A model generated the notes under the pieces. It was given only the letters and a program-made list of their open reading frames with translations, had not been told where the DNA came from and ran no database searches. Position numbers and translations under genes: made by a program. A DNA stretch of 7,052 bases from a virus (lineage: Duplodnaviria; Heunggongvirae; Uroviricota; Caudoviricetes): the IMG/VR virus record IMGVR_UViG_2778261417_000006; one strand, 5' to 3'. Positions 1 through 7,052 of the stretch are shown here, piece by piece. The first letter of the stretch is position 1. Every line of letters starts with the position of its first letter.

Positions 1-130
1 GAATCTGAGGCAGCACCTGGCACGGCTGGGACGGAAGTCGCTGTCGTTCTCAAAATCGGTGGAGCTGCATGACAAAGTCATCGGGCATTATCTGAACATA
101 AAACACTATCAGTAAGTTGGAGTCATTACC
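1..130 (+). mobile_element. IS1 right end, partial and window-truncated (3' end of insB plus terminal inverted repeat)
   Basis: Positions 2-115 translate to [37 protein letters not shown]-stop, the InsB C-terminus as I recall it. The element ends ...CTATCAGTAAGTTGGAGTCATTACC at 130, matching the IS1 terminal repeat. Bases 1-130 are the exact reverse complement of 6923-7052. Confidence 0.93.
2..115 (+). CDS. insB: IS1 transposase InsB, C-terminal fragment (gene continues upstream of the window)
   Basis: Open frame from the window edge to TAA at 113-115; the translation matches the InsB C-terminus from memory. Confidence 0.85.
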
Positions 131-1062: not shown

Positions 1063-1641
1063 ATGAATAAAAATATTGCCGTGACGGGCAAGGGGTACGC
1101 TCGTCCAGTGAAAAAATTCTGCGATATTCGTGATCTCGTCGTTCTGCGCTTTGATAGTGTGAACGTTCGTGTGGTGTATCTGAACGGCGATCCGTGGTTT
1201 GTTGCAAAAGATGTTTGTGCTGCGCTGGAACTAACCAATTCGCGTACGGCGTTGCAGATGCTTGATGATGATGAAAAGGGAGTAAATTTAACTTACACCC
1301 CAGGAGGAAATCAGAATATGAGAATTATCTCTGAGTCAGGTTTCTACAAACTAATAGCCCGCAGCCGCAAAGCAACGACGCCTGGCACATTTGCTCATCG
1401 TTTCAGTAACTGGGTATTCAGAAATGTGATACCAGGTATCAGAAAAACGGGGACTTATGGTATCCCGTGGGGTGCATTACAGGATTTTTCCCGCCGTAAA
1501 GAGCAATATCAAATAAGTGCCAGCGAGAAGGGGAGGGAGCTACAGGCATGTAAGCGCAAAAAGCGTGAGCTGGAGGAAGAAGAAAAAACGCTGATACGTG
1601 AATATCAGCCTGAGTTTTACTTTGGTAACCGCATTCAGTGA
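1063..1641 (+). CDS. Bro-N domain protein (phage antirepressor-like) with charged C-terminal tail
   Basis: 192 aa. Residues about 35-140 (VRVVYLNGDPWFVAKDVCAALELTNSRTALQMLDDDEKGV...TPGGNQNMRIISESGFYKLIARSRKATTPGTFAHRFSNWVFRNVIPGIRKTGTY) match the Bro-N consensus closely. The C-terminus is K/R/E-rich and looks coiled-coil-like. Confidence 0.85.
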   Translation: MNKNIAVTGKGYARPVKKFCDIRDLVVLRFDSVNVRVVYLNGDPWFVAKDVCAALELTNSRTALQMLDDDEKGVNLTYTPGGNQNMRIISESGFYKLIARSRKATTPGTFAHRFSNWVFRNVIPGIRKTGTYGIPWGALQDFSRRKEQYQISASEKGRELQACKRKKRELEEEEKTLIREYQPEFYFGNRIQ

Positions 1642-1737: not shown

Positions 1738-1917
1738 TCAGTCAGATTTGGTTCGTTCCAAGGTTTGCAACGAGAGCTTTTTCCTGTGCTCTTTAAGGAA
1801 TTTCTCAAGAGCAAACGAACAAGGTGCGAATCTTTCTGATTCATGTTCATGCGCTATATTTTTGCGTCGTCTCTTACGAGTTGGTGATGGTGTTTTGGTT
1901 GATTCTGTGTCGCTCAT
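1738..1917 (-). CDS. Hypothetical small basic protein, 59 aa (absent from the supplied ORF track)
   Basis: Hand translation of the minus strand gives MSDTESTKTPSPTRKRRRKNIAHEHESERFAPCSFALEKFLKEHRKKLSLQTLERTKSD-stop. It sits 57 bp downstream of the 101-aa minus-strand gene, has an AGGA about 8 nt upstream, and the minus-oriented hairpin lies about 70 bp beyond its stop. Confidence 0.4.
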   Translation of the reverse strand: MSDTESTKTPSPTRKRRRKNIAHEHESERFAPCSFALEKFLKEHRKKLSLQTLERTKSD

Positions 1918-1974: not shown

Positions 1975-2280
1975 CTATTCATGCTCTTTGACCTTGCGTC
2001 GCTGGAGTTCTTCACGCGCGACGGTGACGAGTTGCCCGATCTCCTCGGCTGCTTTGATGCCGATTTGTTCGACCTTAGCCAGGGCATCCAGTGACGACAC
2101 AAGGGGATTTTCTCCGCTGCCTTCTGCTTGGCGGCGGGCTATTTCTCCGCGCATGGCGGTTACGATAAATCCGGCATTGCTTTCACCGTCCAGCTTAACG
2201 GATTCCATCCCTTGCATAACATCTAGTGGGACTCTGACAGTTGTCAGTTGTGATTTTGCGTTTTTGTTAGCCGTTGCCAT
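1975..2280 (-). CDS. Hypothetical 101-aa protein; candidate DNA-binding regulator of the element (possibly ribbon-helix-helix-like)
   Basis: AGGAG SD 8 nt upstream of the ATG. It is transcribed divergently from the rightward operon across a palindromic operator region. The N-terminal segment TTVRVPLDVMQGMESVKL is compatible with a beta-strand plus helix RHH fold, but the family is not recognised with certainty. Confidence 0.5.
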   Translation of the reverse strand: MATANKNAKSQLTTVRVPLDVMQGMESVKLDGESNAGFIVTAMRGEIARRQAEGSGENPLVSSLDALAKVEQIGIKAAEEIGQLVTVAREELQRRKVKEHE

Positions 2281-2301: not shown

Positions 2302-2379
2302 GTGTGTTTCAGTATACACAAAAAAAGAAATACAAAAAGCCTTGACGTGTGTTTCATGCGCTCATAACATGAAACACAC
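2302..2379. promoter_or_regulatory. Divergent promoter/operator region
   Basis: Perfect inverted repeat GTGTGTTTCATG (2347-2358) / CATGAAACACAC (2368-2379) with a 9-bp spacer. A third half-site GTGTGTTTCA sits at 2302-2311. Candidate + promoter: -35 TTGACG (2342-2347), 17 bp, -10 TAACAT (2365-2370). Candidate minus promoter: -10 TATACT (complement of 2311-2316). Confidence 0.6.
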
Positions 2380-2470
2380 CGAAAGGATTGTTGAAATACA
2401 AAGAGCAACGCCCCGCAGTGCTGGGAACACATACGGGGCGTCTAACCAACAACGTAAACTAGGAGCCGTT

Positions 2471-2668
2471 ATGGTTGCTGTAAATCATATACCACACCTT
2501 GTACACACACAAACGGCCTTTGTGTGGCGTTTTCTGGCACTGAGTGCCGGAGAATCTCAAATCATCCACGTAACCGCCTGGACGGAACGCGAAGCGCGTA
2601 GCCGTTGCCCGTCCGGTTGTGTTGCTGTATTCGCTGCAAAAATCCGCCAGGGAGTGAGTCATGCTTAA
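2471..2668 (+). CDS. Hypothetical protein, 65 aa; likely first gene of the rightward operon
   Basis: AGGAG SD 5 nt upstream of ATG 2471. Its stop overlaps the start of the next ORF by 8 nt. It is the 3' end of the long 1598..2668 stop-free frame in the ORF track. Confidence 0.45.
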   Translation: MVAVNHIPHLVHTQTAFVWRFLALSAGESQIIHVTAWTEREARSRCPSGCVAVFAAKIRQGVSHA

Positions 2669-2846
2669 AACCTTCCGTGTATTTGCCCGAGCTGTTAACC
2701 CAATAGGCCACACAATTGGTATCGCTCAGAATGTGAAGGCTGTTAATGTTCAGACGGCTATTGCTGCGGTGAGAAGCGAATCATCAGAATATGGCTTATC
2801 ACAAGTCATTATTTCAGCAGTGTATGAATTAAAAGAGGTGCATTAA
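2661..2846 (+). CDS. Hypothetical protein, 61 aa
   Basis: GGGAG SD; stop TAA overlaps the next ATG as TAATG (translational coupling). Confidence 0.5.
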   Translation: MLKTFRVFARAVNPIGHTIGIAQNVKAVNVQTAIAAVRSESSEYGLSQVIISAVYELKEVH

Positions 2847-3037
2847 TGCAGGAAATTACATTACACGAAGCCGCTGAACGTGCGCACCAGACAGAAATTA
2901 TTTGCCGCCTTCTTGAGGTATACCCGAACAAAATTACAGATGCTGATATATCCGCACTGGCGAGCCTACTGGCGCGTCTTTCGGGAAGTGTCGCTAGTTT
3001 TTTGATTGAGGAAGAAAGTAAGCTGGTGGGGGATTAA
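2846..3037 (+). CDS. Hypothetical acidic protein, 63 aa
   Basis: AGAGG SD; stop TAA is immediately followed by the next ATG (coupled). Confidence 0.5.
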   Translation: MQEITLHEAAERAHQTEIICRLLEVYPNKITDADISALASLLARLSGSVASFLIEEESKLVGD

Positions 3038-3259
3038 ATGAATACAGAACGGGAAGTCTTTTTTAAATTGTTAGCATGTGCAGAAAGTTCATTAACTTTA
3101 AATAATTCAGCAAAAGCAATATTAAATATGTGGCTTGATTGCATAAATGACAATGAAGATGCAAATATTGCTTATGGCCTGTTGTCACTTATTGATGAAT
3201 CAGCAGAAAAACTCAATGACGCAATAAATAGTGCCCTGCTATCAAATAAGTCGAGTTAA
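3038..3259 (+). CDS. Hypothetical acidic protein, 73 aa, encoded in a markedly AT-rich segment (candidate moron)
   Basis: GGGGGA SD 4 nt upstream. By eye this ORF is about one-third GC, well below the flanking genes. Confidence 0.5.
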   Translation: MNTEREVFFKLLACAESSLTLNNSAKAILNMWLDCINDNEDANIAYGLLSLIDESAEKLNDAINSALLSNKSS

Positions 3260-3276
3260 GTCGAGGAATAAATAAT

Positions 3277-3576
3277 ATGGAAATGAAAAATTCTGGCTTT
3301 ATTGCCAGCGGCCCCGCTCGACCTGAATTTATGAACGGCGATATTTACCGCGATAAATACGGCGGCACGGTAACGATTAAAGGCGTGGCAGAACGGCGCA
3401 TCACTTACCGCCGTGAGGGGTATAGCTATGACTGCGTGATGCCTGTTTATCAGTTCCGGCGTGATTTTTCCCTGGTATATGCCGCACCCCGCAGTAAGCC
3501 CATCAGCAGGGAAAAAGCGTGGGGAAATATCCAGAAAATGAAAACCATGATTAACGGATTCAGAGGTAAAAAATGA
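3277..3576 (+). CDS. Hypothetical protein, 99 aa; immediately upstream of and overlapping the primase-like gene
   Basis: GAGGA SD; ATGA start/stop overlap with the 584-aa ORF. Confidence 0.55.
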   Translation: MEMKNSGFIASGPARPEFMNGDIYRDKYGGTVTIKGVAERRITYRREGYSYDCVMPVYQFRRDFSLVYAAPRSKPISREKAWGNIQKMKTMINGFRGKK

Positions 3577-5327
3577 AACTGGCACCGAACGTAAAACAGC
3601 AGTCACGCGGCATAAAACACAAAGGAACAGAAGTAATTATTTTTGCGGGTAGTGATGCCTGGGCACACGCGAAACAATGGCAGGAACATGATGCGCGTAT
3701 GGCCGGAGATAATGAGCCTCCTGTGTGGCTTGGGGAGCAGCAGCTATCCGAACTGGATAATCTGCAAATTGTGCCGGAAGGCCGAAAATCAGCACGCATA
3801 TACAGGGCCGGATATCTTGCGCCTGTAATGATAAAGGCGATTGGTCAGAAGCTGGCGGCAGCAGGCGTACAGGATGCAAATTTTTATCCTGAGGGTATGC
3901 ACGGCCAGGAGGTGCAGAACTGGCGCGAATATCTGGCCCGTGAACGCCAGAATCTTTCTGATGGTCTGGTCATTGAGCTTCCGGTAAAGCAAAAGGCGCA
4001 ACTTTCGCAGATGGCGGACAGTGAGCGCGCGCAGTTGCTTGCCGATCGCTTTGATGGCGTTTGCGTACATCCTGAAAGTGAAATCGTTCACGTATGGCGC
4101 GGCGGGGTATGGTGTCCGGTCAGCACAATGGAACTTAGCCGCGAAATGGTGGCGATCTATTCAGAGCACAGGGCCACTTTCAGCAAGCGCGTAATCAATA
4201 ACGCCGTGGAAGCGTTAAAAGTTATTGCCGAACCAATGGGCGAGCCGTCTGGCGATTTGCTGCCGTTCGCCAATGGTGCGCTTGACCTGAAAACGGGGGA
4301 ATTTTCCCCGCACACGCCGGAGAACTGGATCACCACGCACAACGGCATTGAGTACACGCCACCAGCACCAGGGGAGAACATCCGCGATAACGCGCCAAAC
4401 TTTCATAAATGGCTTGAGCACGCAGCCGGAAAAGACCCGCGCAAGATGATGCGTATATGTGCCGCGCTGTACATGATTATGGCGAACCGGTACGACTGGC
4501 AGATGTTTATTGAGGCCACCGGAGACGGCGGGAGCGGTAAAAGTACATTCACACACATAGCCAGCCTTCTGGCAGGGAAACAGAACACGGTAAGCGCTGA
4601 AATGACATCGCTTGATGATGCTGGTGGACGTGCGCAGGTTGTCGGGAGTCGTCTTATCGTCCTGGCTGACCAGCCGAAATATACAGGCGAAGGAACGGGC
4701 ATCAAGAAAATCACAGGCGGCGACCCCGTGGAAATTAACCCGAAATATGAAAAGCGTTTCACGGCGGTAATCAGGGCGGTGGTGCTGGCGACCAACAACA
4801 ACCCGATGATATTCACCGAACGGGCCGGAGGTGTGGCACGTCGTCGCGTGATTTTCCGTTTCGACAATATCGTCAGTGAGGCCGAAAAAGACAGGGAGCT
4901 ACCGGAAAAGATTGCGGCTGAAATCCCCGTTATTATCCGCCGATTGCTGGCGAACTTTACCGACCCTGAGAAGGCACGGGCTTTACTACTGGAACAGCGT
5001 GACGGTGATGAAGCACTGGCAATAAAGCAACAGACGGATCCGGTTATTGAGTTTTGCCAGTTCCTGAATTTTCTGGAGGAAGCGCGCGGCCTGATGATGG
5101 GTGGCGGTGGTGATTCAGTGAAGTACACGACCAGGAACAGCCTTTACCGCGTCTATCTGGCGTTTATGGCATACGCGGGCAGGAGCAAACCGCTAAACGT
5201 GGCTGAGTTCAGCAAGGCCATGAAGCCAGCGGCGAAAGTTTACGGGCATGAATATATTACGCGAAAAGTTAAGGGAGTAACGCAGACCAACGCAATTACA
5301 ACAGACGATTGCGACGCGTTTTTATAA
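3573..5327 (+). CDS. Replication protein: P4-family primase C-terminal domain / D5-like SF3 helicase
   Basis: 584 aa. Walker A GDGGSGKST is encoded at 4521-4547. The block LIVLADQP...KKITGGDPVEINPKYEKRFTAVIRAVVLATNNNPMIFTERAGGVARRRVIFRF resembles the phage/plasmid primase P4-family C-terminal signature. GAGG SD 6 nt upstream. Confidence 0.82.
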   Translation: MKLAPNVKQQSRGIKHKGTEVIIFAGSDAWAHAKQWQEHDARMAGDNEPPVWLGEQQLSELDNLQIVPEGRKSARIYRAGYLAPVMIKAIGQKLAAAGVQDANFYPEGMHGQEVQNWREYLARERQNLSDGLVIELPVKQKAQLSQMADSERAQLLADRFDGVCVHPESEIVHVWRGGVWCPVSTMELSREMVAIYSEHRATFSKRVINNAVEALKVIAEPMGEPSGDLLPFANGALDLKTGEFSPHTPENWITTHNGIEYTPPAPGENIRDNAPNFHKWLEHAAGKDPRKMMRICAALYMIMANRYDWQMFIEATGDGGSGKSTFTHIASLLAGKQNTVSAEMTSLDDAGGRAQVVGSRLIVLADQPKYTGEGTGIKKITGGDPVEINPKYEKRFTAVIRAVVLATNNNPMIFTERAGGVARRRVIFRFDNIVSEAEKDRELPEKIAAEIPVIIRRLLANFTDPEKARALLLEQRDGDEALAIKQQTDPVIEFCQFLNFLEEARGLMMGGGGDSVKYTTRNSLYRVYLAFMAYAGRSKPLNVAEFSKAMKPAAKVYGHEYITRKVKGVTQTNAITTDDCDAFL

Positions 5328-6564: not shown

Positions 6565-6927
6565 ATGGTTGATTTATATTCGCCTACACAGCTTGTGCAG
6601 GTGGCTAATGCTGAAGATGTGCAAAAAAAATTAAATGCGTTGTTTACCAGTTTGTTTTTCACTCGCTCGGTAATGTTTGAATCGAGAGACATTATTCTTG
6701 ATACGATCGACGATCCAAATATCCCGATCGCGGCGTTTTGCTCTCCTATGGTGGGCAGTAAAGTTTCACGAGATGAGGGATACGAATCAAAAACAATTCG
6801 TCCAGGTTATATGAAGCCGAAAAGCAGCATTGATCCAAATAAGTTAGCTGTGCGCCCTGCTGGTGTGTCACCTGAGCAATACAATGCTTTTGGGGCGCGT
6901 AATATTAAAGTTAAACAGGCGAGGTAA
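6565..6927 (+). pseudogene. Lambda gpE-like major capsid protein, N-terminal about 120 codons only; truncated by IS1
   Basis: The translation from 6565 (MVDLYSPTQLVQVANAEDVQKKLNALFTSLFFTRS...FCSPMVGSKVSRDEGYESKTIRPGYMKPK...) resembles the lambda E N-terminus as I recall it (LFLRLFFRES...YVSPIVSGEVIRSRGG...TPGYVKPK). AAGAGG SD 6 nt upstream. The stop TAA (6925-6927) is supplied by the IS1 terminal sequence GGTAATGA. An alternative start at 6559 (MSMVDLY...) has no SD spacing. Confidence 0.65.
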
Positions 6928-7052
6928 TGACTCCAACTTACTGATAGTGTTTTATGTTCAGATAATGCCCGATGACTTTGTCATGCAGCTCCACCGATTT
7001 TGAGAACGACAGCGACTTCCGTCCCAGCCGTGCCAGGTGCTGCCTCAGATTC
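6923..7052 (-). mobile_element. IS1 right end, partial and window-truncated, inverted relative to the copy at 1-130
   Basis: Exact reverse complement of 1-130; begins GGTAATGACTCCAACTTACTGATAG. Confidence 0.93.
6938..7051 (-). CDS. insB: IS1 transposase InsB, C-terminal fragment (gene continues beyond the window)
   Basis: Mirror image of 2-115; the stop is the complement of 6938-6940. Confidence 0.85.

What the first reader, a model, noticed from the sequence alone, without database searches (positions are those of the whole stretch)
2302..2379. Perfect 33-bp palindromic operator overlapping back-to-back divergent promoters
Two 12-bp arms (GTGTGTTTCATG / CATGAAACACAC) flank a 9-bp spacer and sit exactly over the spacer and -10 of the rightward promoter. 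A third copy of the half-site overlaps the -10 and start region of the leftward promoter. This is the architecture of a dimeric repressor controlling the operon and its own gene at once.
Basis: seen in the sequence. Interest (0 to 1): 0.55.

Follow-up and report, generated by a model that had tools for sequence, protein, structure and literature searches.

The report
Satellite-island repressor operator array
The palindrome is real and is part of a row of four or five short binding sites over two back-to-back promoters, most likely the operator of a small Arc/Mnt-like repressor encoded next to it, which would give E. coli phage-satellite islands (PICIs) a repressor that the papers I read did not identify.

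Summary
GTGTGTTTCATG (2347-2358), a 9-nt spacer, CATGAAACACAC (2368-2379) and a third copy (2302-2311) are all present. The palindrome lies over the only sigma-70-like promoter found, TTGACG-17-TAACAT at 2342-2370.

The window is a fragment of a Gram-negative phage-inducible chromosomal island (int, alpA, Bro-N, primase, SSB), cut by IS1 at both ends.

In 161 related loci the layout stays fixed relative to the -35 and -10. There are 11-bp sites centred about -36, -12, +10, +33 and sometimes +55 from the first -35 base, 21-24 bp apart. The site sequence changes in concert. It maps one-to-one onto residues 9-18 of the divergent 101-aa YlcI/YnfO-family protein. It does not track AlpA, Icd-like or Bro-N alleles.

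The protein models as a ribbon-helix-helix domain plus a long C-terminal helix.

Site orientation flips between classes, so the palindrome itself is not the conserved feature.

The prototype island EcCICFT073 carries the same module. Its 2018 description called the existence of a repressor in these islands unclear.

Best reading: a multi-site operator through which this repressor shuts off the early/replication operon and its own gene. No binding or transcript data exist.

The parts
1975..2280 (-). Gene for the 101-aa candidate repressor (YlcI/YnfO family): N-terminal ribbon-helix-helix domain plus a long C-terminal helix
2209..2280 (-). First 24 codons (N-terminal arm, beta-strand, start of helix 1): the specificity-determining head, which travels with the operators as one cassette
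   Evidence: Differences between classes are concentrated here: 9 of 24 against 3 of 77 residues for L132, and 15 of 24 against 5 of 77 for L058. DNA identity is 88-95% over 2021-2220 and falls to 52-80% over 2221-2400.
2302..2312 (+). Site A, GTGTGTTTCAG, over the end of the leftward -10 and the predicted leftward start
   Evidence: It is invariant in all 14 distinct class-1 intergenic sequences. A class-specific motif occupies the same position in most other classes tested.
2311..2316 (-). Leftward promoter -10 (TATACT on the minus strand); the -35 is weak
   Evidence: The TATAnT pattern is kept in most classes and stays -10-like in the rest, with variation mostly at the fifth position. The consensus scan does not report it. 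This part is inferred.
2326..2336 (-). Site B, AGAAATACAAA, a degenerate site just upstream of the rightward -35, in the -35/spacer region of the leftward promoter
   Evidence: It is repeated at 2393-2406 (family D3). It is conserved within class 1, including in Photorhabdus. In most other classes a class-specific motif sits at the same position, centred about -12.
2342..2370 (+). Rightward promoter: TTGACG (2342-2347), 17 nt, TAACAT (2365-2370)
   Evidence: Promoter scan. The -35 and -10 hexamers, 17-18 bp apart, are conserved in nearly all specificity classes although the surrounding sequence differs.
2347..2357 (+). Site C, GTGTGTTTCAT (left arm of the palindrome), in the promoter spacer directly after the -35
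2369..2379 (-). Site D, ATGAAACACAC (right arm of the palindrome), overlapping the end of the -10 and the predicted start near 2377
   Evidence: The flanking CCGA (2380-2383) extends the match to site A.
2392..2402 (-). Site E, TGAAATACAAA, a possible fifth, weaker site in the early transcribed region
   Evidence: It has two mismatches to the core. The ATACAA core is conserved in all 14 class-1 sequences. An equivalent site centred at +55 is seen in class 2.
2471..5327 (+). Rightward early/replication operon presumed to be controlled: Icd-like gene, three small ORFs, DUF4222 and the D5_N/DUF5906 primase
   Evidence: Pfam and NCBIfam matches and RefSeq annotation of the identical island in GPEC1210.

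Best explanation
The 33-bp palindrome is two members (C and D) of a row of four or five 11-bp operator sites, A to E, centred at about 2307, 2331, 2352, 2374 and 2397.

These sites are most likely bound by the island's own 101-aa protein, an Arc/Mnt-type ribbon-helix-helix repressor. Each site would take one dimer, whose paired beta-strands enter the major groove. Neighbouring dimers, about two helical turns apart, could be linked through the long C-terminal helix.

Occupied C and D would cover the spacer, -10 and start of the rightward promoter. That would keep the Icd-like, DUF4222 and primase operon, and so island replication, silent. Occupied A and B would cover the -10/start and the -35 region of the repressor's own leftward promoter, giving negative autoregulation.

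Shown here:
- the sites, their fixed register on the promoter elements and their concerted change across classes;
- the one-to-one match to the protein's N-terminal strand;
- the lack of coupling to AlpA, Icd-like and Bro-N alleles;
- the RHH-like model.

Inferred:
- binding itself, stoichiometry and the direction of regulation;
- both transcription starts;
- how repression is lifted. One possibility is AlpA-driven transcription converging on the repressor gene, or the Bro-N 'anti-repressor'-like protein.
For: 1. Fixed layout. When 161 loci from E. coli, Photorhabdus, Yersinia, Pantoea, Lelliottia, Xenorhabdus, Scandinavium and a Pseudomonas-labelled contig are anchored on the -35, class-specific motifs fall at centres of about -36, -12, +10, +33 and sometimes +55.

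2. Concerted change. Each strand class has its own motif in about 3-4 copies and none of the others' motifs. KSQLTTVRVP goes with GTGTGTTTCA, KSQMTTIRVP with GTATATC, KSQSLTARIP with TGTAAG, KSKQISIRIP with TGTGATT and KSQIKNVRVP with GTGTGCAT. For these five classes the matrix is diagonal apart from a few stray matches of the short TGTAAG core. EcCICFT073 adds KSQALKARVP with TGGGCCACAC.

3. Purifying selection. Within class 1 the GTGTGTTTC cores are invariant from E. coli to Photorhabdus, apart from single-base changes in two sequences, while the sequence between C and D varies freely apart from the -10.

4. Location of the differences. Protein differences between classes sit in residues 3-23, and C-terminal alleles are shared across classes.

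6. Other island regulators are uncoupled. Eight of 19 AlpA clusters and 7 of 14 Icd-like clusters pair with several operator classes.

7. Specific placement. The exact 10-mer occurs nowhere else in 19 kb of island plus helper prophage.
Against: - There are no binding, footprint, reporter or transcription-start data.
- The gene head and the operators are physically adjacent, so their co-variation could partly reflect linkage. No locus separates them.
- No curated RHH family in Pfam is matched above threshold. PSK_trans_fac is sub-threshold in 22 of 29 members, and Foldseek against the PDB found nothing.
- Sites B and E are degenerate in this window.
- Published work shows that AlpA over-expression alone induces EcCICFT073 replication (PMC6092414). 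Any repressor must therefore be overridable by AlpA, by a route not shown here.
Confidence: 0.7

Rival explanations
1. The sites are bound by a trans-acting factor other than the 101-aa protein, for example a helper-phage regulator, and the adjacent gene head merely hitch-hikes with them.
For: The head and the operators are contiguous in the DNA, so linkage alone could produce the one-to-one mapping seen. Helper phages do switch these islands on (PMC6092414).
Against: No other island gene tracks the motif. The variable residues fall in and just before the strand that hhalign places on Arc's DNA-binding ribbon, and R16 is invariant. Strands sharing L12 or M12 have related motifs in unrelated backgrounds, for example E. 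coli class 2 and the Xenorhabdus-type class 6. Recombination breakpoints recur at about codon 24 in several classes.
Confidence: 0.1
2. The leftward pair (101-aa RHH protein plus the 59-aa ORF at 1738-1917) is a toxin-antitoxin-like or otherwise self-contained autoregulated operon, and the sites serve only its own promoter.
Against: The 59-aa ORF was detected in few or no loci of several classes that keep the full site array, for example 3 of 37 loci in class 2, although some contigs are truncated. The best-conserved sites, C and D, sit on the -35, spacer, -10 and start of the rightward promoter, and the register is anchored there. The ORF has no toxin-family or defence-family match.
Confidence: 0.1
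3. One reading: one repressor dimer recognises the 33-bp palindrome as a two-fold symmetric operator, with one extra half-site.
For: The symmetry is perfect in this window, and the C and D sites are likewise inverted in classes 1, 3, 4 and 6.
Against: In EcCICFT073, L005, L006 and class 2 the two sites over the promoter are direct repeats at the same positions. Half-site centres 22 bp apart are too far for one small RHH dimer; this rests on established Arc, Mnt and MetJ structures. Additional sites B and E exist.
Confidence: 0.05
4. AlpA, the island's known activator, binds these repeats.
Against: An AlpA allele 95-100% identical to the window's occurs with two different operator motifs. This operator motif occurs with 9 AlpA clusters.
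Confidence: 0.03

Closest known systems
Phage P22 immI region: Mnt and Arc ribbon-helix-helix repressors at the divergent Pant/Pmnt promoters (established knowledge)
   Same: A small RHH repressor gene is transcribed divergently from the operon it silences, and its operators overlap the promoter cores. The layout of RHH domain followed by a C-terminal helix resembles Mnt. The strand motif R-x-P-x-[DE]-V aligns with Arc.
   Different: Sequence similarity is only marginal (E 0.004 to Arc, 0.05 to Mnt). This locus has four or five 11-bp sites 21-24 bp apart, rather than two subsites about 11 bp apart in a single 21-bp operator. Site orientation is free. The downstream operon encodes an Icd-like protein and a primase, not arc-ant. 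The host element is a satellite, not a phage.
Lambda OR (OR1-OR3 between PR and PRM) and lambdoid immunity regions (established knowledge)
   Same: Several operators about 23-24 bp apart lie between back-to-back promoters. The repressor controls both the early operon and its own gene. Specificity classes are exchanged by recombination as cassettes of operators plus DNA-reading head.
   Different: The DNA-binding fold is different (RHH rather than helix-turn-helix). Sites are 11 bp rather than 17 bp. There is no evidence for positive autoregulation or for RecA-dependent cleavage.
Stl/Rpr master repressors of Gram-positive PICIs (PMC6092414)
   Same: The regulator is encoded divergently between the integration and replication modules of a phage-inducible island, and it is positioned to keep replication genes silent.
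   Different: The proteins are unrelated. The route of de-repression is unknown. Gram-negative islands are known to need the activator AlpA, and the 2018 paper describing them called the existence of a repressor in them unclear.
P1 immI (c4-icd-ant) and P4 CI/seqA RNA immunity
   Same: An Icd-like gene is preceded by a structured leader under a repressor-controlled promoter. A related island (L132) carries Rfam C4 and isrK elements downstream of the same kind of promoter.
   Different: The window has no C4 or isrK match. Its control element is made of protein-type operator repeats.

Membership tests
YlcI/YnfO family (NCBIfam NF041551) | Match to the 42-residue N-terminal model above the curated cut-off | tested here: met
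   63.3 bits against a cut-off of 30, residues 9-50. RefSeq uses the same name.
Ribbon-helix-helix (MetJ/Arc) superfamily | N-terminal strand followed by two helices that superpose on solved RHH domains | tested here: met
Ribbon-helix-helix (MetJ/Arc) superfamily | Significant sequence match to a curated RHH family | tested here: not met
   Pfam gives only sub-threshold PSK_trans_fac matches (best E 0.0011, 22 of 29 members). hhalign gives E 0.004 to Arc and 0.049 to Mnt. No PDB sequence match was found.
Ribbon-helix-helix (MetJ/Arc) superfamily | Dimer with an intermolecular antiparallel beta-sheet that binds the major groove | not testable with these tools
   Only monomer prediction is available. 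It needs a multimer/DNA model or an experiment.
Repressor-operator pair (autoregulated divergent switch) | Repeated sites in fixed register with the -35, -10 and start of both promoters | tested here: met
Repressor-operator pair (autoregulated divergent switch) | Site sequence co-varies with the DNA-reading residues of the proposed binder and not with other regulators | tested here: met
   The caveat is physical linkage of the gene head and the sites.
Repressor-operator pair (autoregulated divergent switch) | Specific binding and repression in vivo or in vitro | not testable with these tools
   No experimental data were found in the searched literature.
Gram-negative PICI / helper-embedded PICI | int, alpA and a D5-type primase in one direction, plus a capsid gene, with integration in a prophage late gene | tested here: met
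   Pfam matches. The intact copy in GPEC1210 splits a lambdoid portal gene and carries capsid, decoration and terS genes. This matches the description in PMC10111431. In the window itself the island is truncated by IS1.
P4/P1-type RNA immunity (Rfam C4, isrK) | Covariance-model match | tested here: not met
   There is no match in the window, even at E up to 10 on 2330-2700. Both families are found in the related locus L132.

The most novel reading that the evidence does not exclude
This module is the missing master repressor and immunity switch of Gram-negative phage-inducible chromosomal islands, including the prototype EcCICFT073. A small RHH protein holds the replication operon off through a periodic operator array. 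At least nine specificity classes have been created by swapping a cassette of about 190 bp (operators plus the first 24 codons), so that co-resident islands do not cross-repress. Induction would work by AlpA-dependent transcription running convergently through the repressor gene, or by a Bro-N anti-repressor, rather than by an Stl-type protein-protein trigger.
Probability: 0.35. Interest if true: 0.72.

Novelty: new member of a known kind. Interest (0 to 1): 0.52.

Why it matters
[quoted passage not shown] Later genomic surveys treat the islands as essentially unidirectional and do not discuss the leftward gene (PMC10111431).

A divergently encoded RHH repressor whose operator array lies over the early promoter is present in EcCICFT073. 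This exact operator region is found in 260 of 5,426 complete E. coli genomes, with related modules in other enterobacterial genera. It gives a concrete, testable candidate for how these islands stay quiescent, and for why several related islands can share a cell.

The natural series of strand-plus-operator swaps is also a ready-made data set for RHH recognition rules.

In the RefSeq genomes listed in the search, the operator region has no annotated feature.

Tried and rejected
- Rfam scans of the window (E up to 1 on the whole window, E up to 10 on 2330-2700) found no known RNA family over the region. The palindrome is therefore not a described RNA element, and it lies upstream of the predicted start.
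- Foldseek of the full model against the PDB gave nothing useful. PDB sequence searches gave only spurious helix matches.
- Pfam on the single protein gave only weak, irrelevant matches.
- AlpA, Icd-like and Bro-N were each tested as alternative binders through allele-operator contingency, and all were rejected.
- The prophage ylcI gene next to cos in L001 was inspected for similar repeats. None were seen.
- PADLOC and Pfam searches on the 59-aa companion ORF found nothing.
- Folding the single leader sequence gave an unremarkable z-score of -1.17. Only covariation supports the hairpin.
- A tRNA scan of the window was negative.
- Literature searches for YlcI/YnfO, RHH in satellites, and EcCICFT073 regulation found no characterisation of this gene or of the repeats.

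Full report
**What is there.**
- The left arm GTGTGTTTCATG is at 2347-2358, the spacer CGCTCATAA at 2359-2367 and the right arm CATGAAACACAC at 2368-2379.
- A third copy, GTGTGTTTCA, is at 2302-2311. Extended to 13 nt, it is a perfect inverted match to 2370-2382.
- This is the only perfect inverted repeat in the window with arms of at least 12 nt and a loop of at most 20 nt. One of 300 Markov shuffles reached that length.
- In a 19-kb intact copy of the element with flanking DNA, the exact 10-mer occurs only at these three places, against 0.04 expected.
- The consensus scan finds a single promoter-like site in 1900-2900: TTGACG (2342-2347), 17 nt, TAACAT (2365-2370) on the plus strand. The palindrome therefore runs from the last -35 base to about +2.

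**Context.** The window is a fragment of a Gram-negative phage-inducible chromosomal island (PICI).
- On the plus strand it carries a truncated integrase, alpA, a Bro-N protein, an Icd-like gene, three small ORFs, DUF4222, a D5_N/DUF5906 primase and SSB.
- A 101-aa gene (1975-2280) and a 59-aa ORF (1738-1917) lie on the minus strand.
- Both window ends are IS1.
- An intact, near-identical island in E. coli GPEC1210 sits inside the portal gene of a lambdoid prophage. It continues with capsid, decoration, HTH and terS genes. This is the helper-embedded PICI arrangement described in PMC10111431.
- RefSeq names the 101-aa product 'YlcI/YnfO family protein'. NCBIfam NF041551 matches residues 9-50 at 63 bits against a cut-off of 30.

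**Comparative test.** I collected 161 loci that encode a relative of the 101-aa protein together with its upstream region. They came from species-representative genomes, metagenomes and IMG/VR.
- Anchored on the rightward -35, nearly all keep the same skeleton: TTGAxx, 17-18 bp, TAxxxT. Most also keep a TATAnT -10 on the opposite strand about 25 bp upstream of the -35.
- Short motifs occupy fixed positions around this skeleton, centred at about -36, -12, +10, +33 and in some classes +55 relative to the first -35 base. They are 21-24 bp apart.
- In the window these are A 2302-2312, B 2326-2336 (AGAAATACAAA, degenerate), C 2347-2357, D 2369-2379 and E 2392-2402 (TGAAATACAAA, degenerate).
- The motif sequence differs between groups of loci, and all copies within a locus change together.
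- The groups coincide with the sequence of residues 9-18 of the protein. KSQLTTVRVP goes with GTGTGTTTCA, KSQMTTIRVP with GTATATC(T)CAC, KSQSLTARIP with GTGTAAG, KSKQISIRIP with TGTGATT and KSQIKNVRVP with GTGTGCAT.
- For these five classes the count matrix is diagonal, with about 3-4 copies per 125 nt on the diagonal and essentially none elsewhere, apart from a few stray matches of the short TGTAAG core.
- Within the window's class the cores are invariant from E. coli to Photorhabdus, apart from single-base changes in two sequences. The sequence between C and D is free to vary apart from the -10, and the outermost TG/CA of the 12-nt arms is not conserved.

**Orientation is not conserved.** C and D are inverted in the window's class and in three others. 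They are direct repeats in EcCICFT073 (TGGGCCACACC twice, 23 bp apart), in the Pantoea and Lelliottia loci and in class 2. The perfect palindrome is therefore a lineage-specific arrangement of two sites. It is not the unit under selection.

**Who binds.**
- Differences between protein classes are concentrated in residues 3-23: 9 of 24 against 3 of 77 for L132, and 15 of 24 against 5 of 77 for L058.
- C-terminal alleles are shared between classes.
- DNA identity to other-class loci is 88-95% over 2021-2220 and drops to 52-80% over 2221-2400.
- The exchangeable unit is thus the operators plus the first 24 codons.
- AlpA alleles are shuffled relative to operator class. Eight of 19 clusters pair with several classes, and the window's operator class occurs with nine AlpA clusters.
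- Icd-like alleles are shuffled in the same way (7 of 14 clusters). Bro-N is absent from most loci.

**Fold.**
- The AF2 model (pLDDT 82) has an extended N-terminus, two helices (19-28 and 35-55) and a long helix (59-100).
- In that alignment the class-variable positions 12-14 correspond to Arc Q9, F10 and N11, its DNA-contacting residues by established knowledge. The N-terminal arm also varies between classes.
- The invariant arginine goes with the near-invariant GTG/CAC ends of the sites.
- That the RHH ribbon is the main determinant of DNA specificity is stated in the abstract of PMC3413123.

**Caveats.**
- No curated RHH family is matched above threshold, and Foldseek found nothing.
- The gene head and the sites are physically linked.
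- Nothing has been measured.

**Mechanism proposed.** An Arc/Mnt-like repressor occupies a periodic array of sites.
- C and D block the rightward early/replication promoter.
- A and B block the repressor's own promoter.
- Dimers two helical turns apart may be bridged by the C-terminal helix. Natural 59-60-aa forms lacking that helix, as in EcCICFT073 and L007, keep the same site spacing.
- Published data show that AlpA over-expression alone triggers EcCICFT073 replication, which requires pri, and that helper phages switch on alpA (PMC6092414).
- Repression must therefore be lifted downstream of AlpA. Convergent read-through from alpA and bro into the repressor gene, or a Bro-N anti-repressor, are possibilities I could not test.

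**Comparison with known systems.**
- The closest analogue is P22 immI, where the Mnt and Arc RHH repressors act at divergent promoters. Lambda OR is a functional analogue for the spacing and the double control, and Stl/Rpr for the role within a PICI.
- This locus differs in having 11-bp sites about 22 bp apart with free orientation, in its head-plus-operator cassettes, and in being carried by a satellite.
- The PICI literature I could search does not describe this gene or these repeats. PMC6092414 says a repressor in Gram-negative PICIs is unclear.
- EcCICFT073 itself carries the module.
- The window's exact operator region is present in 260 of 5,426 complete E. coli genomes, with no annotated feature under it in the genomes listed.

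**Verdict.** The feature is real and functional-looking. It is a new member of a well-known kind (an RHH repressor with its operators) in a system where no repressor had been assigned.

Noticed in passing
window 2408-2448: A conserved leader hairpin lies between the rightward promoter and the Icd-like gene. It has an outer stem ACGCCCCG/CGGGGCGT and an inner stem GTG/CAC, followed by a conserved CTAACCA tail. Across 20 diverse loci, 6 of 10 predicted pairs show compensatory changes. There is no Rfam match, and the single-sequence z-score is only -1.17. Its function is unknown. Hairpin alleles are shuffled relative to operator classes.
   Followed up: partly
window 1738-1917 (minus strand): A conserved 59-aa basic ORF (phrog_21027, function unknown) lies directly downstream of the repressor gene, on the same strand. 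It is present in 87 of 161 related loci and in EcCICFT073 (C_RS30800). It is not annotated in GPEC1210. A toxin-like or co-regulator role is not excluded.
   Followed up: partly
L164 9474-9853 (E. coli CFT073, NC_004431.1 1380473-1380852): The prototype Gram-negative PICI, EcCICFT073, has the same module in a short form. Its 59-aa YlcI/YnfO protein has the strand KSQALKARVP. Two direct TGGGCCACACC repeats 23 bp apart lie over TTGACG...TATAGT.
   Followed up: yes
window 1-130 and 6922-7052: Both window ends are IS1 sequence in the same orientation (99% identity). They truncate the integrase gene on the left and the island's major capsid gene on the right. The island fragment is therefore bracketed by two IS1 copies.
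   Followed up: partly
L001 5577-18004 (E. coli GPEC1210): The intact island is inserted inside, and co-oriented with, the portal gene of a lambdoid prophage, giving the helper-embedded PICI configuration. That prophage also carries its own 64-aa ylcI gene next to cos.
   Followed up: partly
L132 2496-2681 (minus strand): In a class-3 island, Rfam C4 (77.6 bits) and isrK (66 bits) elements lie downstream of the same kind of operator-controlled promoter, overlapping or following the Icd-like gene. Some islands therefore appear to combine a protein repressor with P4/P1-type RNA immunity. The window has neither element.
   Followed up: no
L002 9326-9394, L005 9770-9838, L008 9283-9352, L077 3273-3341: The Rfam int-alpA RNA motif (RF02996) is present in several related islands. 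It is absent from the window, where int and alpA abut.
   Followed up: no
window 1063-1641: A Bro-N protein with strong matches to PHROG 'anti-repressor' families lies between alpA and the convergent repressor gene. It is present in only a minority of related loci. It is a candidate de-repressor but was not tested.
   Followed up: no
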